Source: a virus
Taxonomy: Duplodnaviria; Heunggongvirae; Uroviricota; Caudoviricetes
Direction: 5' to 3' (one strand)
Virus record (IMG/VR): IMGVR_UViG_3300029190_000051
Length of the DNA: 18,378 bases
Part shown: one piece after another, positions 2,334-17,876 of the stretch
How positions within the stretch are numbered: the stretch's first letter is position 1
Layout: each line of letters opens with the position of its first letter
The notes under the pieces: model-generated
Database searches by the model: none
What the model saw: the letters and a program-made list of their open reading frames with translations, nothing else
Told to the model about the DNA's origin: nothing
Made by a program: the position numbers and the translations under genes

Positions 2334-2367
2334 ATCCCCACCCTTATGTAAGGGTGGGGATTTTTTT
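2334..2367 (+). terminator. Rho-independent terminator after the lysis cassette
   Basis: ATCCCCACCCT / AGGGTGGGGAT forms an 11-bp GC-rich stem with a short loop, followed by a run of seven T. Confidence 0.7.
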
Positions 2368-2474
2368 AACCATTCAATTTTTTCTCTAAATCACATTAAA
2401 AGATTCTTCACCTTCGCTGCTTCAGAATACATTTCAACGATAACGAAGTGAGCGGTAATTAAGGTACAGCCTAT

Positions 2475-3124: not shown

Positions 3125-4538
3125 TTATCTGCACGGTGTAGAAACTATTGAAATTGAAACCGGCCCGCGTCCGGTTAAAGCGGTAAAATCCGCCGTCATC
3201 GCTTTAATCGGTACATCCCCCTGCGGTCCGGTAAATAAACCAACATTATGCCTTTCTGAAAGCGATGCTGCGCAGTTTGGCTCGACTCAGGCTAACTTTA
3301 CGATCCCACAGGCACTGAAGGCAATTTATGACCACGGTGCCGGTACGGTGGTGGTGATTAACGTGCTGGATCCGGCAAAACATGGCTCCAACATCAGCAA
3401 TGAGAGTATCACTTTTGATGCTAACAACCAGGCGAAGCTCGCTCACCGCAATGTGCGTAACGTGGTACTAAAGCCCTCTTCATCAAATTCATCAACCTTT
3501 AACACCGCAGCATTTAGCGTAGATGAACAAACAGGCATAATTACCCGTAAAGGAGCCGACATTCCTCCTGGTGCGAAAGTTTGTGCCTATTATTCCTGGT
3601 GCGACCCTACAAAGGTCACCGCAGCCGATATTATCGGTACCGTAAATACCGCAGGCGACCGCACGGGGATGAAACTCCTTCAGGACACCTATAACCTGTA
3701 CGGTTTCTACGCCAAAATCCTGCTTGCTCCTGTGTTTTGTACGCAAAAATCGGTGACTACTGAGCTGATTGCACAAGCGGAAAAACTCGGTGCGATTACC
3801 TACATTGATGCCCCGATTGGGACAACATTCCAGCAGGTATTGGCTGGACGCGGTTCGCAAGGGGCTATCAACTTCAATACCAGCTCTGATCGTGCGCGTT
3901 TATGTTACCCACATGTCAAAGTTTACGATGGCATCACTAACCAGGAAATTCTTGAGCCTCTCTCTTCGCGTGCTGCCGGGCTGCGTGCCAAAGTAGACCT
4001 CGAAAAAGGTTTCTGGTGGAGCAACTCAAACCAGGAAATTCAGGGTATTACCGGTATTGAACGTTCGCTTTCCGCAATGATTGATGATCCACAAAGCGAA
4101 GTGAATCAGCTCAACGAAAACGGCATTACCACTATTTTCAATAGTTACGGCTCTGGTCTGCGCTTGTGGGGTAACCGCACAGCGGCATGGCCTACCGTGA
4201 CCCATATGCGTAACTTTGAAAACGTCCGCCGGACAGGCGATGTAATCAATGAGTCAATCCGTTATTTCAGTCAGCAGTATATTGATATGCCGATTAATCA
4301 GGCACTTATTGACGCGCTGACCGAATCGGTAAATACCTGGGGCCGAAAACTGATTGCCGACGGCGCACTGCTTGGCTTTGAGTGCTGGTACGATCCGGCA
4401 CGAAATTCACCGGCTGAACTCAGCGCCGGGCATTTATTGCTGAGCTATAAATTCACCCCGCCACCGCCGCTGGAACGTCTGACGTTTGAAACTGAAATTA
4501 CTTCTGAATATTTAGTCTCTCTGGAGAGCAATAGCTAA
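3108..4538 (+). CDS. Contractile tail sheath protein
   Basis: 476 aa. Size, position ahead of the tube gene, and conserved C-terminal sheath-like segments (ITTIFNSYGSGLRLWGNRTAAWP) fit a Mu/P2-type sheath. The true start may be the ATG at 3114, which has better spacing from the GAGGA at 3099-3103. Confidence 0.85.
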   Translation: MYMAANYLHGVETIEIETGPRPVKAVKSAVIALIGTSPCGPVNKPTLCLSESDAAQFGSTQANFTIPQALKAIYDHGAGTVVVINVLDPAKHGSNISNESITFDANNQAKLAHRNVRNVVLKPSSSNSSTFNTAAFSVDEQTGIITRKGADIPPGAKVCAYYSWCDPTKVTAADIIGTVNTAGDRTGMKLLQDTYNLYGFYAKILLAPVFCTQKSVTTELIAQAEKLGAITYIDAPIGTTFQQVLAGRGSQGAINFNTSSDRARLCYPHVKVYDGITNQEILEPLSSRAAGLRAKVDLEKGFWWSNSNQEIQGITGIERSLSAMIDDPQSEVNQLNENGITTIFNSYGSGLRLWGNRTAAWPTVTHMRNFENVRRTGDVINESIRYFSQQYIDMPINQALIDALTESVNTWGRKLIADGALLGFECWYDPARNSPAELSAGHLLLSYKFTPPPPLERLTFETEITSEYLVSLESNS

Positions 4539-5062
4539 TGGCTGGAAAAATTCAAATTAACCGTATTACCAACGCCAATATTTATCTCGATGGTAATAAC
4601 CTTTTAGGTCGTGCAACAGAAATTAAATTGCCGGATGTAAGTTTAATTATGCAGGAGCATAAAGCACTGGGCATGGTGGGTAAAATCGAACTCCCGGCAG
4701 GTTTCGATAAACTGGAGGGCGAAATTAAATGGAACTCCTTCTATCAGGACGTAATGCGTAAAACGGCAAACCCGTGGCAGGCGGTTGCATTACAGTGCCG
4801 CTCCAGTATTGATTGCTATAACTCCCAGGGGAAAGCGAATCAATTAGCGCTAGTGACACATTTAACCGTGATGTTTAAAAAGAATCCACTGGGCACATTT
4901 AAACAGAATGAAAACCCGGAATTCAGCAGCGCCTTTGGTTGCACTTATATTAAACAAGTAGTTGATGGTGAAACGCTGCTTGAACTTGATTATATGGCCA
5001 ATATTTTCCGGGTTAATGGTGTGGATCAATTAAGTACCTATCGCAATAACATCGGTGGCTAA
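4538..5062 (+). CDS. Tail tube protein
   Basis: 174 aa, starting at an ATG that overlaps the sheath stop (TAATGG). Size and position are typical of a contractile-tail tube subunit. Confidence 0.75.
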   Translation: MAGKIQINRITNANIYLDGNNLLGRATEIKLPDVSLIMQEHKALGMVGKIELPAGFDKLEGEIKWNSFYQDVMRKTANPWQAVALQCRSSIDCYNSQGKANQLALVTHLTVMFKKNPLGTFKQNENPEFSSAFGCTYIKQVVDGETLLELDYMANIFRVNGVDQLSTYRNNIGG

Positions 5063-5112
5063 GTTATTCGGGGCTACGGCCCCGAACTTTGCAAAATAAA
5101 TAAGGACACAAA

Positions 5113-5430
5113 ATGAAAGAACATTATATCTTGCAGTTTCCATTTACGTCGGCAGCAGGAAATAATATCGACACGCTGCAATTACGTCGCCTGAAAGTAA
5201 AAGATATGCGCAACGCCCGCCGGATCAGCGAAAAGCCAGAAGAGTGGGATGAACCGCTGATGGCGGCGATGACCGGACTGGTGCCAGAAGATTTAGCCGA
5301 AATGGATTTGCTGGATTACCAGGCATTGCAGAAACGATTTCAATCCATGCTTACCGTGGTTACAGAATCCTCCCCTGCTATGGCAGGCAATGGCGCTACT
5401 GGCGAGATGGTTTCGCTTTCCGCCCAGTGA
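5113..5430 (+). CDS. Tail assembly chaperone (P2 gpE / Mu gp41-like position)
   Basis: 105-aa acidic protein located between the tube and tape-measure genes, the canonical chaperone position. An overlapping +1 frame stays open to 5518. Confidence 0.55.
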   Translation: MKEHYILQFPFTSAAGNNIDTLQLRRLKVKDMRNARRISEKPEEWDEPLMAAMTGLVPEDLAEMDLLDYQALQKRFQSMLTVVTESSPAMAGNGATGEMVSLSAQ

Positions 5431-5504
5431 GATAGACGCCCTTACCGTCGATGACTTTAGCAACTGGCTGGATGAAGCCAGCGCCCAAATAAAAATCGAA
5501 TATG

Positions 5505-5529
5505 ACTCGCAGACCTGATGTCTGCGAGT
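5505..5529. other. Perfect 10-bp stem-loop in the chaperone to tape-measure spacer
   Basis: ACTCGCAGAC ctgat GTCTGCGAGT. It is not followed by a U-tract. The stop codon of the +1-frame extension (TGA 5516-5518) lies in the loop. Confidence 0.45.
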
Positions 5530-5619
5530 TTCCCAAGCCCGTCAGGTTTATTTCTTCCCTGCCCCTTTTTTTAGAAAAATAACCAGCGGGCCATTATCAA
5601 TATTTAAAGAGAAACAATT

Positions 5620-7995
5620 TTGGCCAACGATATTATTACCCAGCTTCAGGCGCGTAATGAGACGTTGACGCAGGCAATAGCCCGTTACGGCTCACTCAAC
5701 GCCAGAACATTGTTAACTCTCTCTACTCAGCAGGCGACAGTTATCAAACTAACGCAGCAGCTTGCCGATTCCGCTCTCCGCCTGGAGGAAAATAGCCGCA
5801 GCCGCGCTAATCTGATGGAGAAAACCCAAACATTTGCCGGGCAATTTAGCAAAGTATTCAATGTTGAAGCCCCCGACTGGAAGTTGCCGTATGAGTTTCA
5901 GGACAACATGGTCAATATGGCGACCAAAGGTGGGATGAATGCTACAACCCGCGAGACGCTCAGCCTTAATCTGCGCGACTGGAGCATGGATTTTAACCAG
6001 CAGCAGACCACCTTACAGAACGCAGCCCAAACGCTGATCGAAGGCAATTTGTCGTCGATGCAGGATCTCAACCGTTATATGCCGGAGATCGCCAAAGCTG
6101 CCACCGCCACGCGCGAAAGTGCTGAAACGTGGGCGAATGCCGCGCTCGCGACTCATGATCGACTGAATATTGCCCCGGAAAATTTCCACGCCGCGCAAAA
6201 CATGATGTACGGCATTAGCAAAAGCGGTGGGCCTGCCATTGCTGAACAAACGCAGTGGATAGAGAAATTTGCAGGTAAAACCGGCGCTCAGGGTCTGGAA
6301 GGTATGGCTGAACTGACTGCCGCCATGCAGATCGCAATGAAAAATGGGGCCAGCGCCAGTGCGGCGGCGGAGAATTTTGACCACTTTCTGCAAACCACCT
6401 TTTCGAAAAAAACCGATAGCTGGTTCGCCAGCCAGGGCGTCGATCTGCAAGGCTCTCTGCTTGAACATCAGCAAAACGGTATGGGTGTTAGCGAAGCCAT
6501 GACTCATATCGTACAAATGCAGCTTGAGAAGATGAACCCGGCGATCCTCGACACCTTCAAACGTACTATGCAGATTGAAGATTTATCTGCTCGCAGCAAT
6601 GCGCTGCAATCGATGGTGTCGCAATTTAATCTGGGCGAAATGTTCGGCGATGTGCAAACGGTGGAATTCCTGGCACCTATGCTGGCGAATATGGAGGAAT
6701 ATCGCCAGTTAAAAGCCTCTGCCATGCAAGCCACCAGCAAGAATCTGATTAACGCTGACTTTTCTGCGCAAATGGCCTCGCCCATTGAACAGACTAAAGC
6801 GTTACAGCTGGCATTAAATGATTTATGGCTCAGCATTGGTTTGCAGCTTATGCCGGCGATTGGCGAGCTGGCACAAAGCCTTACGACGGTTATTCGCCAG
6901 TTCAGCGCCTGGCTACGCGAACATCCGGCGCTGGTGCAAAACATTGCGAAAATCGTCGGGGCGGTTTGGCTGTTTAACGGCGCGCTGAATGTTTTAAAGC
7001 TGGGCGCGAACCTCATCACCTCGCCGTTTATTCGTCTGGTCGATATCTTCCTGAAAGTCAAGGCAAGTCTGGCGCTCACAGGCGGGGCAAGTAAGATGCT
7101 ATCAGCGGTTAAGTCATTGGGTGGCGGCGCAAAATGGCTAATGCAACTGCTTGGTCGTGGCCTGATTGGCGCACTGAAACAGGTAGGTCAGACCGTCTTC
7201 TGGTTGGGTAGGGTTTTATTGATGAATCCCATTGGTCTGGTCATCACTGCGATTGCGGGCGCTGCTTATCTGATTTGTCGCAACTGGGAGCCTATCTCCA
7301 GGTTCTTTTCGACCATCTGGCAACGTATCACCACGGCCTTTGACGGCGGCATTGCAGGAATTTGTCGGTTGATTCTCGACTGGTCACCGCTGGAGTTGTT
7401 CTATAGCGCCTTTTCCAGTGTGATGAATTGGTTTGGTGTCGAGATGCCTGCAAGTTTTAGCGAGTTCGGCAGCAATCTTCTGGGCAGTCTGGTTGACGGC
7501 ATAATGAATGCCTTCCCCGCTCTGAAAGGCATTATTGATCAGGTAAAAAACGCCATCCCAGACTGGCTAAAAACCACGATGGGTATTAGTACAGAAGGAT
7601 CGGCTACAGCTATTACAAGCACGACTAATACCGCATCCGTCTCCCCCGCGACCGTTGTTCCAGGCGTTGCCGGTGCGATTTTAACACCGCCGGTGGGCAA
7701 ACAACTCGCGCCATCCGGCAAAACGGCTACGCCGTCATCGGCGCCAGCGGCAAAAAATACAGCCGCCAAACCCGTATCTGCCTCTTTACCTGGTAAATCC
7801 GTAACCAAACCGGCGACGCTACCCTCCCGTTCCTCAGGAAAAGTCCAGGTAAATTTTTCGCCACAAATTACCGTGCAGGGTAACGGACAAAACACCACTA
7901 AAGAGATTCAGAACGTGTTGACGATGAGTAAACGCGAACTGGAAAGAATGATTAACGATGTAATGGCGCAGCAGCAGCGCCGGGGGTATGCCTGA
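5620..7995 (+). CDS. Tail tape measure protein
   Basis: 791 aa, the largest ORF, downstream of the chaperone. It has hydrophobic segments in the C-terminal third and a Ser/Thr/Pro/Ala-rich low-complexity tail. It starts at a TTG (5620) after AAAGAGAAA; the first in-frame ATG is about 65 codons in. Confidence 0.85.
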   Translation: MANDIITQLQARNETLTQAIARYGSLNARTLLTLSTQQATVIKLTQQLADSALRLEENSRSRANLMEKTQTFAGQFSKVFNVEAPDWKLPYEFQDNMVNMATKGGMNATTRETLSLNLRDWSMDFNQQQTTLQNAAQTLIEGNLSSMQDLNRYMPEIAKAATATRESAETWANAALATHDRLNIAPENFHAAQNMMYGISKSGGPAIAEQTQWIEKFAGKTGAQGLEGMAELTAAMQIAMKNGASASAAAENFDHFLQTTFSKKTDSWFASQGVDLQGSLLEHQQNGMGVSEAMTHIVQMQLEKMNPAILDTFKRTMQIEDLSARSNALQSMVSQFNLGEMFGDVQTVEFLAPMLANMEEYRQLKASAMQATSKNLINADFSAQMASPIEQTKALQLALNDLWLSIGLQLMPAIGELAQSLTTVIRQFSAWLREHPALVQNIAKIVGAVWLFNGALNVLKLGANLITSPFIRLVDIFLKVKASLALTGGASKMLSAVKSLGGGAKWLMQLLGRGLIGALKQVGQTVFWLGRVLLMNPIGLVITAIAGAAYLICRNWEPISRFFSTIWQRITTAFDGGIAGICRLILDWSPLELFYSAFSSVMNWFGVEMPASFSEFGSNLLGSLVDGIMNAFPALKGIIDQVKNAIPDWLKTTMGISTEGSATAITSTTNTASVSPATVVPGVAGAILTPPVGKQLAPSGKTATPSSAPAAKNTAAKPVSASLPGKSVTKPATLPSRSSGKVQVNFSPQITVQGNGQNTTKEIQNVLTMSKRELERMINDVMAQQQRRGYA

Positions 7996-8948
7996 TGTAT
8001 GCCGTTTTAGGAGAGATTGAATTTAAGGTTGTCACATTCTGGGACGGCTTTAAAAGCACAATGGGCGTGGATTACGCCACACATGCCCGTATAGAAGGCA
8101 AACCCGGCGTGCAGTTTATTGGCGATAAGCTGGATATGCTGGCGCTGGAATTTTCCCTGCACAGCCAGTTTTGCCAGCCCACAACAGAGCTGAACCGACT
8201 GCGTGAAGCCATGCTTGCTCACAAGGCGATGGCACTGGTATTTGGCAATGGCGATTATCGCGGCTGGTTTGTGATTACGGAGCTAACCGCCACCCACCAG
8301 CACACCGATCCCTGGGGCAATGTGATTGCCCAAAACGGAACGATGTCGCTCCAGGAGTACACCGGCGATCCTAAAAATCCACTTTTACCTCCGGCGATTA
8401 CCACCCAGGAGCCCAACATCGAGGAAAAGGCGAGCGATTTTCCCGACAAGGTGGAGTCCTGGTTTGATCAGATATTAAACGCCATCGAAGAAGGTATGCG
8501 TAAGGCCAAAGAGATGCTGGATGAACTGACACAAGCCATTGAAGATATTAAAAAAACGGTGGCAAAAGTGAAAGCAATGATTAAAGAGGCCAAAGCGTTA
8601 AAAGAAAAGTGTGAAAAGATAATTACGTCATTGAAAAAGACAATCGACGCCATCGAAACCCTGTTTAAACAGCCAATGGATCTGCAAACGCTGGCAGGAC
8701 TCCCAAAAGCGTTGTCGGCGCAGATTAAAACTTTACTGGGTAACATGCCAGGTATCCGGGACTGCGCCAATGACGCCAGTACACTGGTTGACCATGCTCA
8801 GGCGCTTTTCGACGACATTACCAGCGACATCGCCGAAGCGACGTTTGATAAAGCCGCAACGTTGGTTGATCAGGCACGAACAACGGTACAACAAACCACT
8901 CCCACAGTGAGCCAGCTTGCTGCCGCGACCATTACGAGGATCTGGTGA
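7995..8948 (+). CDS. Tail protein, P2 gpU-like / Mu gp43 N-terminal-like, with a C-terminal coiled-coil extension
   Basis: 317 aa. The N-terminal roughly 125 aa (MYAVLGEIEFKVVTF...GDKLDMLALEFSLH...) resemble gpU-type proteins in pattern and position. The C-terminal roughly 190 aa are Ala/Lys/Glu/Leu-rich and predicted helical. The start overlaps the tape-measure stop (ATGA-type coupling). Confidence 0.55.
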   Translation: MYAVLGEIEFKVVTFWDGFKSTMGVDYATHARIEGKPGVQFIGDKLDMLALEFSLHSQFCQPTTELNRLREAMLAHKAMALVFGNGDYRGWFVITELTATHQHTDPWGNVIAQNGTMSLQEYTGDPKNPLLPPAITTQEPNIEEKASDFPDKVESWFDQILNAIEEGMRKAKEMLDELTQAIEDIKKTVAKVKAMIKEAKALKEKCEKIITSLKKTIDAIETLFKQPMDLQTLAGLPKALSAQIKTLLGNMPGIRDCANDASTLVDHAQALFDDITSDIAEATFDKAATLVDQARTTVQQTTPTVSQLAAATITRIW

Positions 8949-9157
8949 TGCGATACCTTGAACATATCACCACCGACGGCGAACGCTGGGATAATCTGGC
9001 ATGGCATTACTACGGTGATGCGCTGGCTTATGAACGCATAATCGCCGCCAATCCACATGTAGCCATTTACCCGGTACTGCCTTCCGGTATTCAGCTCATT
9101 ATTCCGGTCATTTCCGTCAATAAAACCTTATCGGAGATCCCACCATGGCTGAGATAA
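8945..9157 (+). CDS. Tail protein X (P2 gpX-like, LysM-like fold)
   Basis: 70 aa with the pattern G..WD.LAWHYYGDA...ERIIAANPHV....LPSGIQLIIP, which fits the recalled gpX signature (YYG...ANP...LP.G..L). Confidence 0.7.
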   Translation: MMRYLEHITTDGERWDNLAWHYYGDALAYERIIAANPHVAIYPVLPSGIQLIIPVISVNKTLSEIPPWLR

Positions 9158-10185
9158 GCGTAACTGGTGGCGTCTTTGCCACACTCACGCCCATTTTTAC
9201 CCTCTGGTATGGGCATAAAGATATCACTTATGACATCACACCCTATGTCACCAGCATCAGTTACCACGACAGCATCAAAAACGAGTCGGATACCATCGCA
9301 ATTACACTGGATGACACAGATGGACGCTGGATAAAAGAGTGGTATCCCGGCAAAGGCGATACGCTGGCGCTGCATATGGGTTATCAGGGAGAGAAGCTGC
9401 TCGATTGTGGTCAGTATATTATTGATAAAATTGATATTTCAGCGCCACCTTCTACGGTAAATATTGATGGCATCGCCACTTCCGTCAATCAGGCGCTGCG
9501 CACCCGTAACAGCCAGGGTTTTGAAGAAACGACGCTTTCGGCTATCGCCAGCCGTATCGCACAAACTCACGGCCTAAAGCTGGTGGGCAAAATCGAGCCT
9601 CTGACAATTGACCGGGTGACACAGTACGGCGAAACCGATGTTGGATTTCTCAAACGTCTGGCCAGTGAATATGGTTATGCCGTAAAAGTGACGACGAAAG
9701 AGCTGATTTTTTCACATTTACCCACGCTGCGCTGCCTGGCACCTGTGAAAAAGATCGACCGCAAAGACGTTTCGCATTTCACCTTCAAAGATACCATTAA
9801 CCGTATCTACAAAAACGCCACCGTACAGCATCAAAATAGTAAGAAAAAAGAACTGGTTATCTACACTCACAACAGCCAGCAAAAACCGTCTGCCCGTGGA
9901 GTCGGCACCAGTGCCGACACGCTAAAACTGAACAGTCGGGCGACGGACGTTGGCGCAGCACAGGCAAAAGCCAACGCTGCACTCGACAGCCACAACGAAT
10001 ATCAGCAAACCGGAACGCTCACAATGATGGGCTGCCCGGAACTGACGGCGGGCAATAAAATCGAGCTAACCGATTTTGGCGTGCTTTCCGGTCAATGGCT
10101 AATTGATAAATCGACTCACAGTTTTGTGCGCAGCGGCTATACCACTGAAATCGACGTGTCGCGCGGGCCAGCGACCAGCCAGTAA
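9145..10185 (+). CDS. Baseplate hub protein (P2 gpD-like / Mu gp44-like)
   Basis: 346 aa, in the conserved U-X-D position after the tape measure. Size and order support the call. Confidence 0.7.
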   Translation: MAEISVTGGVFATLTPIFTLWYGHKDITYDITPYVTSISYHDSIKNESDTIAITLDDTDGRWIKEWYPGKGDTLALHMGYQGEKLLDCGQYIIDKIDISAPPSTVNIDGIATSVNQALRTRNSQGFEETTLSAIASRIAQTHGLKLVGKIEPLTIDRVTQYGETDVGFLKRLASEYGYAVKVTTKELIFSHLPTLRCLAPVKKIDRKDVSHFTFKDTINRIYKNATVQHQNSKKKELVIYTHNSQQKPSARGVGTSADTLKLNSRATDVGAAQAKANAALDSHNEYQQTGTLTMMGCPELTAGNKIELTDFGVLSGQWLIDKSTHSFVRSGYTTEIDVSRGPATSQ

Positions 10186-10194
10186 GGAGGAAAT

Positions 10195-10896
10195 ATGAAA
10201 GGAGTAACCCGTCAAACGGGGATTATCAGCGATATTGACGAAACCAGCGTTCGGGTGCGGGTCACGCTCCCGGAGTGTGACAATCTGAAGAGCAACTGGC
10301 TTGCGGTACTTCAACGCAATTCCCAGGACAATAAAGACTACTGGCTACCGGATATGGGCGAGCAAGTGGAAGTTCTGCTGGACAATAACGGTGAAGATGG
10401 CGTGGTGCTGGGCGCAGTTTATTCTACGGTTGACACCGCGCCTGTAGCCTCGCGCGACAAACGTTACGTCCAGTTTTCTGATGGCGCAGCGTTTGAATAT
10501 GACCGCAGCACGCACCAGCTGACGATCAACGGCGGTATCGAGAAAATCGTGATTGAGGTTATCAACGGTACCTGCCTGACATCGCCCAACGTTGAGATTA
10601 AAGCCCAACAGGTCACCGTGACTTCCGATACCGTCGATGTTAAAGCGACCGATGTCAGCATCGACGCCACTAAGGTCGAGGTTAAAGCAGCAGCAGTGAC
10701 GGTAGATGCGCCCATGAGCACCTTTACTGGCAACGTCACGGTAATGAAAAAACTCACCTGGCTTGGCGGGATGGCAGGAAGTGGAGGCATCGGTAACGCA
10801 GCCACGATAACCGGCAATGTCAACGTGATCGGCAACGTTCAGGCCAGCGGCGCATTGCAGGACAGCGGTGGCAACTCCAACCACCATTCACACTGA
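10195..10896 (+). CDS. Baseplate central spike (P2 gpV-like / gp5-VgrG-like) with a His-rich C-terminal tip
   Basis: 233 aa. The N-terminal region is OB-fold-like, followed by repetitive beta-strand-like V/T/D-rich segments (VTVTSDTVDVKATDVSIDATKVEVKAAAVTVDA). The C-terminus is ...GGNSNHHSH, consistent with an apex metal-binding His motif. Confidence 0.75.
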   Translation: MKGVTRQTGIISDIDETSVRVRVTLPECDNLKSNWLAVLQRNSQDNKDYWLPDMGEQVEVLLDNNGEDGVVLGAVYSTVDTAPVASRDKRYVQFSDGAAFEYDRSTHQLTINGGIEKIVIEVINGTCLTSPNVEIKAQQVTVTSDTVDVKATDVSIDATKVEVKAAAVTVDAPMSTFTGNVTVMKKLTWLGGMAGSGGIGNAATITGNVNVIGNVQASGALQDSGGNSNHHSH

Positions 10897-10902
10897 CGTT
10901 TA

Positions 10903-10931
10903 ACCCGCCTGATGGCGGGTTTTCTCTTTTT
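10903..10931 (+). terminator. Rho-independent terminator-like hairpin between the spike and wedge genes
   Basis: ACCCGCC tgat GGCGGGT followed by TTTCTCTTTTT. Confidence 0.5.
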
Positions 10932-10994
10932 AATCAATCAGTTTTCTAAATCGCTTTAATATCTCCACAGCCCGTTCAGGGCGAAAATACCCTC

Positions 10995-11354
10995 ATGAAC
11001 ACAAAAACACGCCCCTCAACGCTGCACTGGCAACCGGCCTTGCTGCGGCCTGAAGAATACGTCTGCGGACTGGATGATATTCACCAGGCAATACACATCA
11101 TTCTGCGTACACCGCGCGGCAGTGATCCCCACAGACCGCTGTTTGGCAGCAACTTGTGGCACTACATCGATTACCCCATCGAGCGGGCTATCCCGCATGT
11201 GGTACGGGAGTCGGTGGAAGCCATCCGCCAGTGGGAACCGCGCTGTCGGTTGCTGAAGGTGACACCAGTAATCGACGGCGAACATCTGACGTTACGTGTG
11301 CAATGGCGCGCCGCTGACGGCGTTATCAACTCAACGGAGGTGTTATGGCGATAG
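10995..11354 (+). CDS. Baseplate wedge protein (P2 gpW-like / T4 gp25-like)
   Basis: 119 aa with IHIILRTPRGSDPHRPLFGSNLWHYID...IRQWEPRCRL, which fits the recalled gpW/gp25 pattern (ILRTP.GSR...YGS.L...WEPR). Confidence 0.8.
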   Translation: MNTKTRPSTLHWQPALLRPEEYVCGLDDIHQAIHIILRTPRGSDPHRPLFGSNLWHYIDYPIERAIPHVVRESVEAIRQWEPRCRLLKVTPVIDGEHLTLRVQWRAADGVINSTEVLWR

Positions 11355-12460
11355 CCGAACCCAATTTTATTGACCGCGATCCTGCGCAAATTACCAGTGA
11401 GATGATTGCGCAATACGAAGATGCCAGTGGTAAAAAACTCTATCCGGCACAGGCTGAGCGGTTGCTCATCGACCTGTTTGCCTATCGTGAAAACCTTGTA
11501 CGCATCGCCATTCAGGAAGCGGCGAAACAAAACCTGGTCGCGTATTCCCGCGCGCCAATGCTGGATTATTTAGGAGAGCTGGTGGGCGTTCACCGTTTGC
11601 CTGCGCAGCCAGCAAAAACGACGTTGCAGTTTTCGGTCGTCAGTGCGTATACCAGCAATATCCTGATTCCCCAGGGGACGCGGGCCAGTGCCTCTGATAG
11701 CGTGATGTTCGCCACCGATGAAGATGTTCTGCTTCCGGCCTGGAGTTTGCATATCGCCGTTCCTGCCACCAGCCTCGCAGCAGGTGAACAGGGTAACGGC
11801 TGGCAGCCTGCACAAATTAGCGCTCTGGTCGACAGGATTGGTCATTATGACATCAACGTAACCAACCTGACTGCGTCAACGGGCGGCTGCGGTGAAGAGA
11901 GCGATGACGCATTGCGCCAGCGTATCCAACTGGCACCAGAAAGCTTTAGTAATGCGGGCAGCTATGGCGCATACCGCTTTCATACGCTTTCTGTTAGCCA
12001 GTCGATTATTGACGTTGCAGTACTGGGGCCGGACGAGGGATTGCCAGAAGGCTGCGTGGAGATCTACCCGCTAACCCTGAATGGACTGCCAGGAATAGAA
12101 CTGCTCGCGCAAATCGAACAGGAGGTTAGCAAGGAGAAAAAACGTCCGCTGACCGACAAAGTGAGTGCGAAATGCGCTCTTCGAGTGCCGTATGAGATCC
12201 GTGCGCAGCTAACGCTGTTTACCACCGCCGATCAGGAGACAACGCTGGCTGCGGCGCGTAAAGCGATTAGCCTCTGGACGCAACAGCGGCAGAAACATCT
12301 GGGGCAAGACATTGTGCCAAACCAGATAATCAAAGTGTTACAGGTCGATGGCGTCTATGACGTTGCGCTGAACTTGCCTACAAAACGTATTTTGCAGGCG
12401 CATGAATGGGCGGAATGCACTGCAATAGACGTCACGATCGCCGGAGTTAGCGATGGATAA
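11345..12460 (+). CDS. Baseplate wedge protein (P2 gpJ-like)
   Basis: 371 aa, overlapping the W-like gene by 10 bp and the I-like gene by 8 bp. Position and size fit the W-J-I baseplate triplet. Confidence 0.75.
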   Translation: MAIAEPNFIDRDPAQITSEMIAQYEDASGKKLYPAQAERLLIDLFAYRENLVRIAIQEAAKQNLVAYSRAPMLDYLGELVGVHRLPAQPAKTTLQFSVVSAYTSNILIPQGTRASASDSVMFATDEDVLLPAWSLHIAVPATSLAAGEQGNGWQPAQISALVDRIGHYDINVTNLTASTGGCGEESDDALRQRIQLAPESFSNAGSYGAYRFHTLSVSQSIIDVAVLGPDEGLPEGCVEIYPLTLNGLPGIELLAQIEQEVSKEKKRPLTDKVSAKCALRVPYEIRAQLTLFTTADQETTLAAARKAISLWTQQRQKHLGQDIVPNQIIKVLQVDGVYDVALNLPTKRILQAHEWAECTAIDVTIAGVSDG

Positions 12461-13169
12461 ATTGCTACCACCGCCGCCGCTTGCCAGCGATGAGCGTTTT
12501 TCGATTCTGGCAAATATCGCCGCCGAGCGTTTTGCCCAACTCGATCTGACGGCGTTGATGGTTTATCTGGTCGACCTGGTTGATGCTTCGGCATTACCAG
12601 CCCTTGCAGAACAATTTCACGTTCAGGGGTTGGAAGGTTGGTTATTTACCACCGATGAGCGGGAGAAACGCGAGTTAATTAAACAAGCCATTGAACTGCA
12701 TAAATATAAAGGAACAATTTGGGCGGTGCGGCGGGTGCTGGAAATACTCTCCTTACCCGGAACTATTTCAGAATGGTTTGAATATGGGGGAAGGGCTTAC
12801 TTTTTTAAGGTTGATATTACACTAGAGGAAAAAGGATTAAATGAAGATGAATTCAATGCACTTATCACATTAATTCATGAATATAAAAATGTCCGTTCAA
12901 AGCTGGAAAGCATTGTTATTTGGCTTATTAATCGAAGCCCAATACCAGTTATTGGCAGTGCCATGCAAGGAGGGGAAGTCATTACAGTATTGCCTCCTGT
13001 TGCAGAAAGCCTCAGCCAGTCATCTGGAATATTTTTAGCGACAGGTTATTGTGTGGAGGAATATATTCAACTACTACCTTATCAACCCGATCGACTAACA
13101 CAATCCCAACCGATGAAGGTCGGCACAGGATACTGGAGCACCGAAATTATGTCTGTATATCCGGAGTAA
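12453..13169 (+). CDS. Baseplate protein (P2 gpI-like) with a C-terminal extension
   Basis: 238 aa. [13 protein letters not shown]...[17 protein letters not shown]...EW.EY...FKVDITLEE...GEVITVLP parallels the recalled P2 gpI sequence. About 55 residues follow the gpI-like end and finish with a similar ...IMSVYPE. Confidence 0.7.
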
Positions 13170-13171
13170 TA

Positions 13172-14782
13172 ATGGCAAGTGAATTTTTTACAATATTAAC
13201 TGCTGCAGGCAAAGCCAAAATTGCCTCAGCACTGGCCGAGCAAAAACAGATCCGTCTGCAAACTATGGTAGTTGGCGACGGTAATGGTAAATATATCGAA
13301 CCGACAGAAAGTCAGACCAAAGTAGTCCATGAGGTCTGGCGTGGTCAGCTCAATACATTAAAAATTGCGCCAGATAATCCGGCCTGGGTTATCGCAGAAG
13401 CGATTATTCCCGAACAAGTCGGAGGCTGGTATGTACGCGAAGTTGGGTTACTGGATACCGACGGCACGATGGTCGCTATTGGTAAATTCCCGGAAACCTA
13501 TAAGCCACGATTACCTGCGGGGGCCAGTAAGCAAATCGTTATACGCGCGGTCATGGAAGTCACCAATGCAGATGCGGTGACGCTTTTGATCGACCCTTCA
13601 GTCGTTGTGGCAACCAGGGAATATGTCGATGACGCGTTGAAAACACATCAGCAATCACGAAATCATCCTGATGCGACGCTGACACAAAAAGGTTTTACGC
13701 AGCTGAGTAATGCGACTAATAGCGATGATGAAACCAAAGCGGCCACGCCAAAAGCGGTAAAAACGGCATATGACCTGGCAAATAGCAAAGCTGCCACCAG
13801 TCATAATCATGCCTGGAATCAGATTACTGGTATCCCTGATGGTACACTGACGCAGAAAGGAGTCGTTAAGCTTAACAATACAACAAATAGCACCAGTACG
13901 ACGGAAGCTGCAACACCAAGTGCGGTTAAGGCAGCGATGGATAAGGCTATTGCTGCGGCACCGTCCAGCCATACCCATGCCTGGGGGCAAATAACAGGTA
14001 TCCCCGACGGTACGCTGACGCAAAAAGGGGTCGTGAAACTTAATAATGCGACCAACAGCACCAGTACGACGGAAGCTGCAACGCCGAACGCTGTTAAGGC
14101 AGCGATGGATAAGGCTATTGCTGCGGAAAGCTGTCCTGTTGGGATGCCTATTCCCTGGCCATCTGATTCTGTACCTTCAGGCTACGCTCTGATGACAGGT
14201 CAGACATTTAATAAAACCTCCTATCCCAAACTGGCAATTGCATATCCATCTGGTGTTATTCCTGATATGCGCGGATGGATAATTAAAGGAAAACCATCCA
14301 GTGGGCGCGCTATATTATCTACTGAACTGGATGGAGTTAAATCACATAACCATACGGGCAGTATTTCGAGTACGGACTTAGGGACGAAATCTGTATCATC
14401 AATAGATCTAGGAACAAAGAACACTCAGTCATTTAATCATGGGATAAAAACAACAAATACAGCAGGCGCGCATAGCCATGATAGTGGTTCTGGCGAAAGT
14501 AGTGAGGGGGGAAAACCTCGGTATGGTACTCGTGATAACACAACAAATAATTTTGGTTCTGGTGAATCAGATCATGACAATTACAAATTTAACACATCCA
14601 CGGATGGAGAGCATGCACATTCAGTTAATGTTGGCTCACACTCTCACTCTGTTATTTTAGGGTCACATAATCATTCAATTGCCCTTGGTTCCCATAATCA
14701 CTCCCTAACCATTAATAATACCGGCAACACCGAAAACACCGTCAAAAATATCGCATTCAACTATATTGTGAGGCTAGCATGA
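13172..14782 (+). CDS. Tail fibre protein (P2 gpH-like N-terminal anchor, tandem fibre repeats, His-motif C-terminal receptor-binding region)
   Basis: Start at the ATG 13172 (GGAG 7 nt upstream), not the track start at 13049. The N-terminus ([28 protein letters not shown]...[34 protein letters not shown]...[34 protein letters not shown]) closely parallels the recalled P2 gpH N-terminus. Three fibre-type repeats follow, and the C-terminus carries [27 protein letters not shown]. Confidence 0.85.
13664..14127 (+). repeat. In-frame tandem repeats inside the tail fibre gene (about 3 copies of about 165 bp / 55 aa)
   Basis: Copies at about 13664-13798 (degenerate), 13799-13966 and 13967-14127. The last two share long identical stretches (AGCACCAGTACGACGGAAGCTGCAAC and GTTAAGGCAGCGATGGATAAGGCTATTGCTGCGG). 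Protein unit: [48 protein letters not shown]. Confidence 0.75.
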
Positions 14783-15486
14783 ATACTTTTACCTTTTCCG
14801 ATGAAGCTCAAATACTAACTGTATATAATTTTTCACAAGACTCCCAAGAATATATCGGTGAGTCTGATGCATACATTGCACCTAATACAGGCTTGCCAAA
14901 TTATTGCACATTAATTTCACCTCCCGAAAAGGTTCCTGGTTTTACTCCAGTGTGGGAGAATGAAACATGGAGACTTATTGAAGATCATCGAGGCCAAACT
15001 GTTTATAACAAAGTTGATGGTAGCCAGCTTATTATTCAAGAATTGGGCCAATTACCTGAAAATGTAACAGTCATTTCCCCGACAGGTTCTTTTGAACGTT
15101 GGGATGGTGAAAAATGGCAACCATCTATAACCGATGCTAAAGAGGCGAAATACTCTGCAATCAAAAATCAACGCGATGCCATCACAACCGATTACATCAT
15201 CATCAACAACCATCACTTCCACAGTGATACAAATAGCCGTATCCAACAGCTTTCACTCACAAAAATGGGAGCGGAGAAAAAAATTCCGCCAGGTTTAATG
15301 TGGAAAACTAAAAATAATGGTCTGATTGAGTTAACCAACGAAATCGCTGCCCAGTTTGAATCGGTCACCATGGATCACGATATGCGCTTGTTCGCAAACG
15401 CCCAGCGTCATATCGCGGCGGTGGAAGCACTGGACGATATTCAGGCGGTGCTCGACTACGATTATTCAACAGGCTGGCAACCATGA
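14779..15486 (+). CDS. Tail fibre assembly protein (lambda Tfa-like chaperone)
   Basis: 235 aa. The N-terminal half ([102 protein letters not shown]) parallels the recalled lambda Tfa N-terminus almost motif for motif. The start overlaps the fibre stop (ATGA). Confidence 0.8.
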
Positions 15487-15938
15487 GTAAAACCACTGTC
15501 TGGCTCGCTTGTTATAAGGGCCGAACAGAGCACCGTGGTATTGCCCGACTGGCTGACTGGCTTACCCGTAAAATCACACGCGGTCATTATTCCCACTGTG
15601 AATTAGCCGTTAAGCATGGTGAAAAGAGATACCTTTGTTACTCTGCATCACTGCGCGATCGCGGTGTACGCGGAAAGATAATGCCATTGCCAGCGGATAA
15701 GTGGGATATGCTGCCGCTCCAGGCTAGCCTTCAGGATGTGGAAACTTTTTTCCGTAAACATGATGGCAAAAAATATGACTGGCGCGGAGCATTAGGAATT
15801 ATTACCGGTAATAAAGAACAGCGCGATCGCCTGTTTTGCAGTGAATTTTGTGCTGAATTTCTGCAACTGAAGGAAAGCTGGCGCTATTCTCCAAACCACT
15901 TGTACGCTTTAGTCAGCAGCTGGCAATACCAGCAATAA
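15483..15938 (+). CDS. Hypothetical cargo protein, last gene of the tail operon; possible permuted papain-like (His then Cys) hydrolase
   Basis: 151 aa, translationally coupled to tfa (ATGA). It has His-containing GHYSHCELAV upstream of a Cys-containing LFCSEFCAEF segment, which resembles the C-[ST]-E-F catalytic-Cys motif of YiiX/YaeF-type permuted papain-fold proteins. The functional call is weak. Confidence 0.4.
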   Translation: MSKTTVWLACYKGRTEHRGIARLADWLTRKITRGHYSHCELAVKHGEKRYLCYSASLRDRGVRGKIMPLPADKWDMLPLQASLQDVETFFRKHDGKKYDWRGALGIITGNKEQRDRLFCSEFCAEFLQLKESWRYSPNHLYALVSSWQYQQ

Positions 15939-15943
15939 ATCAC

Positions 15944-15962
15944 GCCGGGCTTTATGCCCGGC
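15944..15962. terminator. GC-rich hairpin shared by the convergent tail operon and nucleotidyltransferase operon
   Basis: GCCGGGC ttta(t) GCCCGGC lies 6 nt after the cargo-gene stop and overlaps the last codons of the minus-strand gene. Confidence 0.5.
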
Positions 15963-16752
15963 ACATTACCGTTTGATACAGCAAATTATCTAGCTCCCGA
16001 ACATCTCCATCTCGACTGTCCGGTAAAATCGGTGGAATTTCCCCGCGCGCCAGTTCCGCGCGAATAAACGCATGCAATAAAGGACGGCGCAGTCCATATT
16101 CCGCTTCACTCGCACGCTGTTTACGCTCCAGCAATTCATCTATTTCTGCGCGTAAGGCCGCATCCAACTCACTTCCCGCCAGTAACTCGGCAAAGCGCAT
16201 TGGCGGCACGCCTTTTCCCGCTTCAACCCAGCGTACGGCCAGCAGCGGGCGCAGCACGTAAAAGTATTTTTTCAGTCGAACTTCGTCGCCCTGTAAATAA
16301 CCGCGAAAGTTTTTCTGCGCCATCGAATAGTAATGCCAACGCGCGCGCAACGAAGAAAACCACATTGGGACCATTGCCTTAAGCGCCGTTATCGTTTCTT
16401 CATCTTGTTGATAGACCACCGGAGAATCCAGCCATTCTATCAGCGTCGGATTCGCGCCTTTCAATAATCCCAGCGCCTTACGCCACTCCCAACCGGAAAC
16501 ATCTAACTCGTCGTCGATAGGCAGTTCGATAACATCGCGCGGTGACTCTACACGCAGATACCATTCTAGCGGATGGACATACAAAAACCGTACATCGTAG
16601 TCGCTATCGGGCGAGGCAAATCCCCAGCCGCGGCTGCCTGATTCACAGGCGTACAGCACTTTCACGCCATAGCGACGTTCTATTTCTTTTAACTGCTGCG
16701 ATACCCGTTCGCGCATCGCAGCACTGACTCCATTTAATGGCATTTGACTCAT
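15952..16752 (-). CDS. Pol-beta-superfamily nucleotidyltransferase-fold protein
   Basis: 266 aa. VLYACESGSRGWGFASPDSDYDVRFLYV contains the G-S...D-x-D signature of minimal nucleotidyltransferases, with a further acidic cluster (IDDELDVSGWEW). The start overlaps the upstream gene's stop (ATGA on the minus strand). Confidence 0.65.
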   Translation of the reverse strand: MSQMPLNGVSAAMRERVSQQLKEIERRYGVKVLYACESGSRGWGFASPDSDYDVRFLYVHPLEWYLRVESPRDVIELPIDDELDVSGWEWRKALGLLKGANPTLIEWLDSPVVYQQDEETITALKAMVPMWFSSLRARWHYYSMAQKNFRGYLQGDEVRLKKYFYVLRPLLAVRWVEAGKGVPPMRFAELLAGSELDAALRAEIDELLERKQRASEAEYGLRRPLLHAFIRAELARGEIPPILPDSRDGDVRELDNLLYQTVMCRA

Positions 16753-17876
16753 CCTTTGATATTCACTAACCCGTGCAGAACCTGATCCAGACCACCAAAT
16801 ACAGAGATGTTATCGATCCGCTCAGCCACTCTCTCCAGCGTTTCCAGTTCTTTTAAGCGTAACGCCACCGGGTTGTTTTCCATGACTTTAGCGGTATTGA
16901 GTAACGAACGCGTCGCTGCCGTTTCTTCACGCCGACGAATCACATTCGCCTGCGCAGATTTCTCTGCCTCAACCAGCTGCGCGAGGATATTTTTCATATC
17001 ACCAGGCAGGACGATATCTTTCACCCCTAATGAGGCAATCTCCATACCAAATGGCAACATGCGCGATTTCACCTGTTCGCTGACAACGTCATCAATGACC
17101 TGTTTATCTTCCAGCAACTCATCCAGCGTACGCGTACCTACCGCTTCACGCAGTGCAAATTGCAATTCCCGATACAAATGATCAATCGGCTTCGTTAACT
17201 GACTAAATGCCAATAACACGTCGCTGTAGCGCCAGTTGGCGGCGAGGTTAATCCGCAGATTGACCTTATCTTTCGTTAAGATTTCTTGCCCGCTGACTTC
17301 CAGTACCTGCAAGCGGGTGTCAACCACTTCAGCTTCAACCAGATGGTTAATTTTCCAGTACGCAGTCAGTCCCGGCGGTAACAGCGCCTGCGTTTTACCA
17401 TCGATTTTCAGTACACCTACGTGCCAGGCCGGAACCTGCACCGTCAGTATCGCATCGCGGCCTTTAACTGCCCCTTTGCGCCGTGGCTGCAATACCGCAT
17501 TCATCACCTCCGTTTGAACCTGGACTTGCTGCGTACTCATCCGCACCAGCGTCAAATCATCCTCTACACGCCAGTACAAACGACGCGTTGATGGCGGCAG
17601 GATCTCCAGCAAAATACCGTCCATATACAACGCCCCGGCTTCAGTCTCCGACAAGTCGGCCACCACGCAATATCTTTCCACCCACTCTGGCTGAAAGCGG
17701 CGCAAATAATCCGCCAGCACGTCGGGAACTTCGCTGCCATCGAGCGTAATCAGCAAGACTTCTGGCGTATTTAACCAGGGTAAAAGATGCTCGCCTGCAT
17801 GCAGCACTTTGTAGTAATCGCCATTTCTGGAAAGTAATGCCAGCTGATCTTTTCTTACGCTTATTTTCTTAATCAT
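16749..17876 (-). CDS. Soluble SPFH/band-7-like domain protein with an unassigned N-terminal domain of about 150 aa
   Basis: 375 aa. The C-terminal roughly 220 aa have stomatin/HflC-like character (LEVSGQEILTKDKVNLRINLAANWRYSD..., ...AEKSAQANVIRRREE..., ...LRLKELETLERVAERIDNISVFGG). No N-terminal hydrophobic membrane anchor is visible. AGGAA lies 6 nt upstream of the ATG. Confidence 0.5.
   Translation of the reverse strand: MIKKISVRKDQLALLSRNGDYYKVLHAGEHLLPWLNTPEVLLITLDGSEVPDVLADYLRRFQPEWVERYCVVADLSETEAGALYMDGILLEILPPSTRRLYWRVEDDLTLVRMSTQQVQVQTEVMNAVLQPRRKGAVKGRDAILTVQVPAWHVGVLKIDGKTQALLPPGLTAYWKINHLVEAEVVDTRLQVLEVSGQEILTKDKVNLRINLAANWRYSDVLLAFSQLTKPIDHLYRELQFALREAVGTRTLDELLEDKQVIDDVVSEQVKSRMLPFGMEIASLGVKDIVLPGDMKNILAQLVEAEKSAQANVIRRREETAATRSLLNTAKVMENNPVALRLKELETLERVAERIDNISVFGGLDQVLHGLVNIKG

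What the first reader, a model, noticed from the sequence alone, without database searches (positions are those of the whole stretch)
15483..15938. Cargo gene coupled to the fibre chaperone: possible permuted papain-like cysteine hydrolase
This 151-aa ORF overlaps the tfa stop (ATGA), so it is expressed with the tail genes, yet it is not a standard tail component. It contains a His-bearing GHYSHCELAV segment followed about 90 residues later by LFCSEFCAEF, which resembles the C-[ST]-E-F active-site motif of YiiX/YaeF-type permuted papain-fold enzymes. A hydrolase co-expressed with a killing particle could be a fibre-associated depolymerase accessory, an effector, or a self-protection factor. 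The call rests on a short motif and is speculative.
Basis: inference. Interest (0 to 1): 0.5.

Follow-up and report, generated by a model that had tools for sequence, protein, structure and literature searches.

The report
Papain-like enzyme coupled to fibre chaperone
The last gene of this E. coli phage-tail cluster encodes a small cysteine enzyme with a rearranged papain fold that almost always sits directly after the tail-fibre chaperone gene in many phages; its substrate is unknown, and databases label it wrongly or not at all.

Summary
A 151-aa ORF lies at 15483-15938 (+) and its ATG overlaps the tfa stop (ATGA). Both quoted motifs are present.

The fold call also holds.
- A family profile matches the Bacillus cereus permuted papain-like enzyme 3kw0 (E 4e-5).
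- His38, Tyr98 and Cys119 are invariant in 237 of 237 sequences compared. They align with the catalytic His49, Tyr115 and Cys128 of YiiX.

It is not loose cargo. Of 154 loci examined, 127 have a recognisable Tfa homologue directly upstream, often with the same 4-nt overlap. The chaperone's constant C-terminal DUF4376 half travels with this gene, while the fibre tip and the Tfa N-terminal half are swapped between alleles. The same fibre, DUF4376 chaperone and papain-like trio occurs in Alteromonas phage V22, where fibre and chaperone alone gave working fibres.

Best reading: a soluble cytoplasmic thiol acyl-hydrolase or acyl-transferase. It is a divergent branch of the YaeF/YiiX group and works with the chaperone module rather than with a particular receptor. 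The substrate is unknown. The database name "enoyl-CoA hydratase" is wrong.

The parts
15483..15938 (+). ORF151: a soluble 151-aa permuted papain-like (NlpC/P60, YaeF/YiiX-related) Cys-His-Tyr enzyme. Candidate catalytic residues are His38, Cys119 and Tyr98, with Glu40 as the probable relocated triad acid.
   Evidence: pI 9.5, GRAVY -0.67, no signal peptide or TM segment. dN/dS 0.04-0.09.
14779..15486 (+). Tail-fibre assembly chaperone (Tfa). The N-terminal part (residues 1 to about 130) matches Caudo_TAP and is variable. The C-terminal DUF4376 domain (residues 119-227) is constant. The stop codon overlaps the ORF151 start.
   Evidence: Pfam DUF4376 at 1.9e-14 and Caudo_TAP at 3.3e-7. PHROG 1807/105. 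Mosaic junction at about 15175.
15133..15483 (+). Constant DUF4376 half of tfa, which is co-inherited with ORF151.
   Evidence: Its identity to relatives tracks that of ORF151. A tblastn search of this 117-aa piece hit 15 phage records, and all 15 have a papain-like gene next to it.
13172..14782 (+). Tail fibre (Phage_tail_fib N-terminal domain, fibre repeats, collar domain). Its C-terminal tip differs between alleles.
   Evidence: Pfam. (RefSeq start at window 13172). (C-terminus not conserved between E. coli alleles).
15483..15486 (+). ATGA stop/start overlap, indicating translational coupling of tfa and ORF151.
   Evidence: The same 4-nt overlap occurs in 57 of the 127 loci with a Tfa homologue upstream.
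15941..15965 (.). GC-rich hairpin between the convergent ORF151 and RlaP genes. It marks the end of the tail operon and is terminator-like on the minus strand.
   Evidence: (-17 kcal/mol, z -2.9).

Best explanation
ORF151 is a genuine, strongly conserved gene for a small, soluble, basic, cytoplasmic enzyme.

**Fold and active site (shown).**
- It has the circularly permuted papain-like (NlpC/P60) fold and is a divergent branch of the YaeF/YiiX (Pfam PF05708, C92) group that has no family model of its own.
- The proposed active site is His38 on strand beta2, Cys119 at the start of a helix, and Tyr98 as the oxyanion residue.
- The canonical third acid on strand beta3 is missing. It is apparently replaced by Glu40, two residues after the His.

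**Chemistry (inferred).** Every characterised permuted NlpC/P60 enzyme works through an acyl-thioester. These are PLAAT/LRAT, RID, Tox-Act1/TseH and LnsA; YiiX, not itself characterised, was crystallised with a fatty acid bound. By analogy, ORF151 should form an acyl-thioester on Cys119 and then hydrolyse or transfer an acyl group, most likely a fatty acyl group, on an ester or amide bond.

**Genetic setting (shown).**
- It is the last gene of the late tail operon of a head-less Mu-type tail cluster.
- It is translationally coupled to the fibre chaperone.
- Together with the chaperone's constant DUF4376 domain it forms a conserved two-gene unit found in fibre modules of myoviruses, siphoviruses and tail-only clusters across Proteobacteria.

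**Target (inferred).** The enzyme allele does not change when the fibre tip is swapped. Its target is therefore generic: the chaperone-fibre complex or a common envelope lipid, not a strain-specific receptor. It is an accessory factor and not a folding factor, because in phage V22 the fibre and the DUF4376 chaperone sufficed without it.
For: **Fold**
- Profile match to 3kw0 at E 4.1e-5.
- AF2 model with pLDDT 83.8 and pTM 0.83.
- Foldseek against PDB: 3kw0 at E 5e-4.

**Catalytic residues**
- H38, Y98 and C119 are invariant in 237 of 237 sequences, a set that includes YiiX.
- They align with YiiX His49, Tyr115 and Cys128 (residue roles from PMC3142127).
- Bridging relatives: the Manatee Spring phage protein gives hhalign 97.9% to the family and a sub-threshold PF05708 hit at E 2e-4. 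V22 gp28 gives 96.3% and RSA1 ORF26 gives 95.6%.

**Module linkage**
- 127 of 154 loci have a Tfa homologue directly upstream, 57 of them with the 4-nt overlap.
- After clustering at 90% identity, 77 of 102 clusters have one.
- Distant members at 32-40% identity also follow a fibre and a small chaperone-like gene.
- The downstream neighbours vary.
- All 15 phage records that hit the DUF4376 half carry a papain-like gene next to it.

**Mosaic structure.** Junction inside tfa.

**Cytoplasmic and soluble.**

**Selection.**

**Lipid-directed chemistry of relatives.** PMC3142127, PMC12994826, PMC7387801.

**Not needed for fibre folding or binding in V22.** PMC7289586.
Against: - No Pfam, NCBIfam or PADLOC model matches the protein.
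- The canonical triad Glu is absent from this clade.
- No activity, substrate, localisation or expression data exist for any member.
- The tight link to the chaperone could reflect operon position alone, without any functional interaction.
- Some relatives stand alone, away from tail genes (Ralstonia jumbo phage).
- Phage A5 appears to have a DUF4376 chaperone module without this gene: A5 gp10, directly after the chaperone, matches V22 gp29 (PMC10579305), and no A5 record appeared among the listed papain-like hits.
Confidence: 0.6

Rival explanations
1. It is a peptidase or isopeptidase acting on the fibre-chaperone complex. For example, it could release or trim the DUF4376 chaperone "cap" from mature fibre tips, or remove a host-attached modifier from tail proteins.
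For: - Co-inheritance with the DUF4376 domain.
- 1:1 translational coupling.
- DUF4376 chaperones have been proposed to act as transient caps on fibre tips (PMC10579305).
- The enzyme is basic (pI 9.5) and Tfa is acidic (pI 4.7).
Against: - The closest structural relatives, YiiX and BcPPNE, have hydrophobic S1 pockets and are judged unsuited to peptides (PMC3142127).
- V22 gp27 dissociates from the fibre without gp28 (PMC7289586).
- No conserved cleavage site was identified.
Confidence: 0.15
2. It is a moron-type gene that modifies the producer's envelope, for example LPS or lipid A precursors, phospholipids or lipoproteins. The effect would be self-protection or superinfection exclusion.
For: - Position at the end of the fibre module, where receptor-related accessory genes often sit.
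- Lipid-directed chemistry of the superfamily (PMC12994826, PMC7387801).
Against: - No promoter of its own; it depends on the late operon.
- No signal peptide.
- The allele does not co-vary with the fibre tip that determines the receptor.
- The same position is kept in lytic-type and temperate phages of many tail types.
Confidence: 0.1
3. It is a late-acting phospholipase that helps membrane disruption or particle release at lysis.
For: - Relatives Tox-Act1 and TseH are phospholipases (PMC12994826).
- It is expressed late.
- In some phages it lies next to lysis genes.
Against: - This cluster already has holin, endolysin and a spanin-like gene at the other end, at positions 1108-2330.
- The conserved neighbour is the chaperone, not the lysis genes.
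Confidence: 0.08
4. It is a toxin or effector carried by the killing particle into target cells.
For: Permuted NlpC/P60 domains serve as T6SS effectors (PMC12994826).
Against: - No adjacent immunity-like gene.
- The family is mostly in ordinary phages with heads.
- No delivery domain, and the protein is a small stand-alone one in the 150 best representatives.
Confidence: 0.03

Closest known systems
E. coli YiiX (PDB 2if6) and Bacillus cereus BcPPNE (PDB 3kw0), YaeF/YiiX-like permuted NlpC/P60, Pfam PF05708 / C92
   Same: - Permuted order, His before Cys.
- Ser-His, Tyr and Cys-Ser-Glu motifs align residue for residue.
- The D-x-G-V-R loop is shared with BcPPNE.
- BcPPNE is described as likely cytoplasmic too.
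   Different: - No hit to the PF05708 model.
- About 40-50 residues shorter than YiiX (202 aa) and BcPPNE (195 aa); the aligned YiiX sequence shows a long insert after the Cys helix that ORF151 lacks.
- The canonical beta3 Glu is replaced by Ser or Ala, with an invariant Glu at His+2.
- The N-terminus of YiiX looks like a signal peptide in its sequence; ORF151 has none.
- Encoded in phage fibre modules.
Alteromonas phage V22 gp28 ("permuted papain-like amidase") and Ralstonia phage RSA1 ORF26
   Same: - Homologous (hhalign 96.3% and 95.6%).
- Same size.
- Same position directly after a chaperone or Tfa-like gene that follows the fibre, with overlapping stop and start. The chaperone is confirmed as DUF4376-type for V22 only; the RSA1 gene is merely annotated "tail fiber protein".
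[quoted passage not shown]
   Different: - Only 17-24% identical to ORF151.
- They keep the canonical Glu and lack Glu at His+2.
- Neither has been studied functionally; V22 gp28 was only listed as "protein catabolism".
Tox-Act1 / TseH (T6SS effectors) and LnsA (S. aureus lipoprotein N-acylation)
   Same: Permuted NlpC/P60 core with an essential His/Cys pair and acyl-directed chemistry (phospholipase; N-acyl transfer).
   Different: - They act outside the cytoplasm, come with immunity or partner proteins, and are larger.
LRAT / PLAAT (HRASLS) enzymes, MARTX RID and picornavirus 2A H-box/NC proteins
   Different: - Eukaryotic, viral or toxin contexts.
- Different third residue (His in PLAAT).
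- No detectable sequence similarity.

Membership tests
YaeF/YiiX-like permuted NlpC/P60 (Pfam PF05708 Peptidase_C92) | Circular permutation: the catalytic His precedes the catalytic Cys in the sequence. | tested here: met
   His38 and Cys119 are invariant in 237 of 237 sequences and align with YiiX His49 and Cys128.
YaeF/YiiX-like permuted NlpC/P60 (Pfam PF05708 Peptidase_C92) | Papain-like alpha/beta fold with the Cys at the N-terminus of a helix packed on an antiparallel sheet. | tested here: met
YaeF/YiiX-like permuted NlpC/P60 (Pfam PF05708 Peptidase_C92) | Conserved NlpC/P60 signature tyrosine (oxyanion or P1 carbonyl). | tested here: met
   Tyr98 is invariant and aligns with YiiX Tyr115 in the G-K-x-Y-D motif (PMC3142127).
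YaeF/YiiX-like permuted NlpC/P60 (Pfam PF05708 Peptidase_C92) | Acidic third triad residue (Glu64 of YiiX and BcPPNE) on strand beta3. | tested here: not met
   The equivalent position 55 is Ser or Ala in 233 of 237 sequences. Glu40, at His+2, is present in 232 of 237 instead. V22 gp28 and RSA1 ORF26 show the reverse pattern.
YaeF/YiiX-like permuted NlpC/P60 (Pfam PF05708 Peptidase_C92) | Score above the Pfam gathering threshold. | tested here: not met
   No Pfam hit at E<=1 for ORF151. The relative from MW202455 scores 21.9 bits against a cut-off of 27.
YaeF/YiiX-like permuted NlpC/P60 (Pfam PF05708 Peptidase_C92) | Hydrophobic S1 pocket, lipid binding and thiol-dependent acyl hydrolase or transferase activity. 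| not testable with these tools
   Model coordinates are not exposed and no biochemical data exist. The secondary-structure elements that form the pocket (helix 20-32, helix 100-108) are present.
[quoted passage not shown] | Match to the PHROG profile. | tested here: met
   E 2.7e-58 over residues 1-150.
Enoyl-CoA hydratase / crotonase superfamily (implied by the database name) | Crotonase fold or an ECH Pfam domain. | tested here: not met
   No ECH Pfam hit. The fold is papain-like. At 151 aa the protein is far shorter than crotonase-fold enzymes (general knowledge).
Tail-fibre / chaperone module accessory gene | Conserved position directly downstream of, and coupled to, the fibre chaperone gene. 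| tested here: met
   127 of 154 loci, or 77 of 102 clusters at 90% identity. Also V22, RSA1, SuMu and Moraxella phages.
R-type tailocin cluster (context) | Regulator, lysis and complete contractile-tail genes, without head, replication or integration genes, at a fixed chromosomal site. | tested here: met
   Particle production and killing activity are not testable here.

The most novel reading that the evidence does not exclude
Fibre modules of many phages and tailocins would then have three parts rather than two. In this reading the DUF4376 domain of the chaperone recruits a dedicated Cys-His enzyme. That enzyme covalently edits the fibre-chaperone complex, by de-capping, de-acylation or acylation. 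Alternatively it rides on the fibre tip to deacylate envelope lipids at the adsorption site. Either way this would be an enzymatic step in fibre maturation or adsorption that has not been described.
Probability: 0.15. Interest if true: 0.75.

Novelty: new variant of a known kind. Interest (0 to 1): 0.45.

Why it matters
- Fibre and chaperone cassettes are the parts exchanged when phages and tailocins are retargeted. A conserved enzyme gene welded to the constant half of the chaperone has been ignored in that work.
- The family is large: 4,488 representatives at 50% identity. It has no Pfam or NCBIfam model.
- It carries a wrong legacy name, which has already been read as fatty-acid metabolism in a pathogen GWAS (PMC4532294).
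- Defining its substrate would add a function to the poorly understood bacterial YaeF/YiiX group. It could also show whether fibres or their chaperones are chemically modified.

Tried and rejected
- **Family scans.** Pfam, NCBIfam and PADLOC scans of ORF151 found nothing.
- **Domain fusions.** The 150 best of 4,488 representatives are stand-alone proteins. The few longer ones look like mis-called starts or unrelated tails.
- **Virion proteomics.** The SuMu paper does not mention the protein and its mass spectrometry is not informative.
- **Literature.** Searches on an E. coli tailocin at lysC and on the legacy name gave nothing functional.
- **afdb50 fold search.** The library was not available.
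- **RlaP/slipin pair.** I considered it part of the element and rejected that, because it occurs in 1,632 genomes against about 200 for the tail cluster.
- **hhalign to a single YiiX sequence.** It gave only E 0.0015 and 17% probability. It is used for residue correspondence, not as proof of homology.
- **Genome-contig scan.** The first attempt, with the broad alignment, failed and was repeated with a narrower one.

Full report
**1. The observation**

The window carries a 151-aa ATG ORF at 15483-15938 on the + strand. The upstream gene (14779-15486) matches Pfam Caudo_TAP and DUF4376 and the tail-fibre-assembly PHROGs. GHYSHCELAV is residues 34-43 and LFCSEFCAEF is residues 117-126. No sigma-70-like site lies on the + strand inside tfa. 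A GC-rich hairpin at 15941-15965 (-17 kcal/mol, z -2.9) separates the ORF from a convergent gene. The ORF therefore looks like the last, translationally coupled gene of the tail operon.

**2. Where the window comes from**

- The window is identical to several complete E. coli chromosomes.
- Bases 1-168 are the end of lysC. Then follow:
  - a Mor-type activator on the minus strand;
  - holin, an SLT endolysin and a lipoprotein;
  - a Mu gp37-like protein, sheath, tube, tape measure and baseplate genes;
  - fibre (13172-14782), Tfa and ORF151.
- After ORF151, on the minus strand, come an RlaP-family nucleotidyltransferase and a slipin, and then yjbD.
- No head, replication or integration genes are present. 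This is a head-less, Mu-type contractile-tail cluster, in other words tailocin-like.
- About 200 of 5,426 complete E. coli genomes carry it. In the three genomes whose surroundings I inspected it lies between lysC and yjbD. ORF151 is present in 203 genomes, always as a single copy next to the DUF4376 protein.
- The RlaP/slipin pair occurs in 1,632 genomes and is therefore a separate element. Strains without the tail cluster have a zeta-toxin gene in the slot.

**3. What the protein is**

- *Database matches.* Pfam, NCBIfam and PADLOC give nothing. PHROG 1128 matches at 2.7e-58. [quoted passage not shown]
- *Sequence.* A search of 5.8 billion proteins returned 89 relatives, none with a Pfam domain. 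In a 39-sequence alignment the invariant residues are Y36-S37-H38-C39-E40, S56, D59, G61-V62-R63, K65, W74, Y98, C119-S120 and P137. The profile of that alignment hits the B. cereus "cysteine peptidase" 3kw0 at E 4.1e-5 across both motifs, and E. coli YiiX (2if6) weakly.
- *Structure.*
  - An AlphaFold2 model has pLDDT 83.8 and pTM 0.83.
  - Next come TseH, Aichivirus 2A, the MARTX RID domain, PLAAT4 and a PPPDE deSUMOylase. Apart from one Euglena respiratory-complex subunit ranked sixth, these are papain-like enzymes; the permuted-NlpC/P60 literature cited here treats TseH, RID, LRAT/HRASLS-type enzymes (to which PLAAT4 belongs) and PPPDE as permuted (PMC3142127, PMC12994826).
  - Foldseek against the whole PDB finds only 3kw0.
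- *Catalytic residues.*
  - Xu et al. (PMC3142127) define the catalytic residues as Cys154/His49/Glu64/Tyr127 in BcPPNE and Cys128/His49/Glu64/Tyr115 in YiiX.
  - In the hhalign alignment to YiiX, H38, Y98 and C119 fall exactly on His49, Tyr115 and Cys128.
  - In 237 sequences, including YiiX and distant phage relatives, H38, Y98 and C119 are each 237 of 237.
- *Physical properties.* The protein is hydrophilic (GRAVY -0.67) and basic (pI 9.5; family median 9.1). It has no signal peptide or membrane segment.
- *Selection.* dN/dS against E. coli alleles is 0.04-0.09.
- *Family size.* There are 4,488 representatives at 50% identity with E<=1e-3. The best 150 are almost all stand-alone proteins of 135-170 aa.

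**4. A difference from the known family**

The canonical third triad residue, Glu64 on strand beta3, corresponds to position 55. That position is Ser or Ala in this clade. Instead, Glu40, two residues after the His, is present in 232 of 237 sequences. The distant relatives V22 gp28 and RSA1 ORF26, like YiiX and BcPPNE, have the canonical Glu and no Glu at His+2. This looks like a relocated triad acid. The canonical side of the comparison rests on only four sequences, so the support is limited.

**5. It belongs to the fibre module**

- *Upstream neighbour.*
  - I collected 154 loci: 80 from IMG/VR, 73 from GTDB genomes, and the window.
  - In 127 of them the gene directly upstream on the same strand is a homologue of the window's Tfa. 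This was detected with an HMM iterated from the window's Tfa. In 57 of them the overlap is exactly 4 nt.
  - In 22 more loci the upstream gene is a different ORF, mostly of similar size. Several of those match tail-fibre-assembly PHROGs.
  - Five loci lack a qualifying upstream ORF, several because the match lies at the contig edge.
  - After clustering at 90% identity, 77 of 102 clusters have the Tfa homologue.
- *Upstream domain content.* Of 53 upstream proteins, 32 match DUF4376 and 41 match the tail PHROG 2837.
- *Downstream neighbour.* It varies in size, strand and spacing.
- *Distant members.* At 32-40% identity they keep the arrangement in different tail types:
  - in a P2-like cluster, between the fibre genes and the sheath gene;
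  - after a 2,486-aa fibre-like protein;
  - in a Pseudomonas phage, before the lysis genes.
- *DUF4376 linkage.* A tblastn search with only the C-terminal DUF4376 half of Tfa hit 15 of 50,697 phage records. Fourteen of them also hit ORF151. The fifteenth (MW202455) has a downstream CDS already annotated "permuted papain-like amidase enzyme". That CDS is homologous to the family (hhalign 97.9%) and scores just below the PF05708 threshold at E 2e-4.

**6. Mosaic structure**

Across E. coli and related enterobacterial alleles, identity in ORF151 tracks identity in the Tfa C-terminal half. The Tfa N-terminal half and the fibre C-terminus are often unrelated. A DNA alignment with strain D7 places the junction at about window 15175, inside tfa. 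Upstream of it the sequences are unalignable. Downstream, covering Tfa residues 133-235, ORF151 and the hairpin, they are about 95% identical. The specificity cassette is therefore the fibre tip plus the Tfa N-terminal half. The DUF4376 domain plus ORF151 is a constant unit.

**7. Published evidence on a relative**

- Alteromonas myovirus V22 has ORF26 (fibre), ORF27 (DUF4376 chaperone) and ORF28 ("permuted papain-like amidase"), with the ORF28 start on the last base of ORF27.
- gp28 is homologous to this family (hhalign 96.3%).
- The V22 paper lists gp28 only as "protein catabolism". It shows that GFP-gp26 co-expressed with gp27 alone binds host cells (PMC7289586). The papain-like protein is therefore not required for fibre folding or binding in that system.
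- A follow-up paper proposes that DUF4376 chaperones act as transient caps on fibre tips. In its comparison table, phage A5 gp10, the gene directly after the A5 chaperone, matches V22 gp29 rather than gp28 (PMC10579305). No A5 record appeared among the listed papain-like hits. The enzyme therefore appears to be an optional accessory.

**8. Mechanism**

- *Shown:* the fold, the conserved His/Cys/Tyr set, a soluble protein without export signals, coupling to the chaperone, and co-inheritance with DUF4376.
- *Inferred from the superfamily:* an acyl-thioester on Cys119 followed by hydrolysis or transfer.
- *Basis for that inference:* every characterised permuted member acts on fatty-acyl esters or amides.
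  - LRAT and H-Rev107 (a PLAAT-type enzyme) (PMC3142127).
  - Tox-Act1 and TseH are phospholipases (PMC12994826).
  - LnsA acts in lipoprotein N-acylation (PMC7387801).
  - YiiX crystallised with a fatty acid and BcPPNE with lysine in S1' (PMC3142127).
  - RID as an N-epsilon fatty acyltransferase rests on my own knowledge, not on a paper read here.
  - D59 of ORF151 aligns with BcPPNE Asp68, which binds the lysine amine.
- *Target:* because the enzyme allele is independent of the fibre tip, the target is probably generic. Candidates are the chaperone-fibre complex or a common lipid. I put 0.6 on the overall statement. The fold and catalytic competence alone would be about 0.9.

**9. Rivals**

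- A cap-removing or fibre-editing peptidase (0.15).
- A producer-envelope modifier for self-protection (0.1). This is weakened by late coupled expression, the lack of an export signal and the lack of co-variation with the fibre tip.
- A lysis-assisting phospholipase (0.08).
- A delivered toxin (0.03).

**10. Novelty**

The fold assignment is not new for distant relatives, since V22 gp28 and MW202455 are already annotated that way. The E. coli protein is "hypothetical" in RefSeq and the clade has no curated model. I found no paper that discusses the conserved fibre, DUF4376 chaperone and papain-like trio, the mosaic junction or the relocated acid. I rate it a new variant of a known kind, with moderate interest.

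Noticed in passing
window 170-15950: Head-less Mu-type contractile-tail cluster: Mor activator, holin, SLT endolysin, lipoprotein, gp37-like protein, sheath, tube, tape measure, baseplate, fibre and Tfa. It lies between lysC and yjbD. About 200 of 5,426 complete E. coli genomes carry it, with diversified fibre alleles. No paper on it was found.
   Followed up: partly
window 15952-17876 (minus strand): An RlaP-family nucleotidyltransferase and a slipin/SPFH protein, with overlapping genes. The pair is in 1,632 of 5,426 E. coli genomes, independent of the tail cluster, and has no PADLOC hit. A strain examined without the tail cluster has a zeta-toxin gene beside it. Phage V22, which has the same fibre, chaperone and papain-like trio, also encodes a stomatin-like protein.
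   Followed up: partly
window about 15175 (inside tfa): A sharp recombination junction. The fibre C-terminus and Tfa residues 1 to about 130 are unrelated between E. coli alleles. Tfa residues 133-235 and ORF151 are about 95% identical. The N-terminal half of this chaperone therefore appears to be the fibre-specific part.
   Followed up: yes
L001 (NZ_CP033850.1) 1-14996: In strain FDAARGOS_497 an IS26/Tn3 resistance region splits the tail cluster and truncates the tape-measure gene. It carries tet(A), OXA-1, aac(6')-Ib-cr and aac(3)-IIe.
   Followed up: no
ORF151 residues 40 and 55; A4 alignment: Apparent relocation of the triad acid. Glu at His+2 and no acid at the canonical beta3 position in 232 of 237 sequences. 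The reverse holds in V22 gp28 and RSA1 ORF26 (alignment) and, per PMC3142127, in YiiX and BcPPNE.
   Followed up: partly
PHROG 1128; SuMu gp51 (L003 3944-4465): [quoted passage not shown] A Haemophilus parasuis GWAS listed the protein so named among pathogenicity-associated genes in a passage that links fatty-acid metabolism to virulence (PMC4532294). The protein is not a crotonase.
   Followed up: yes
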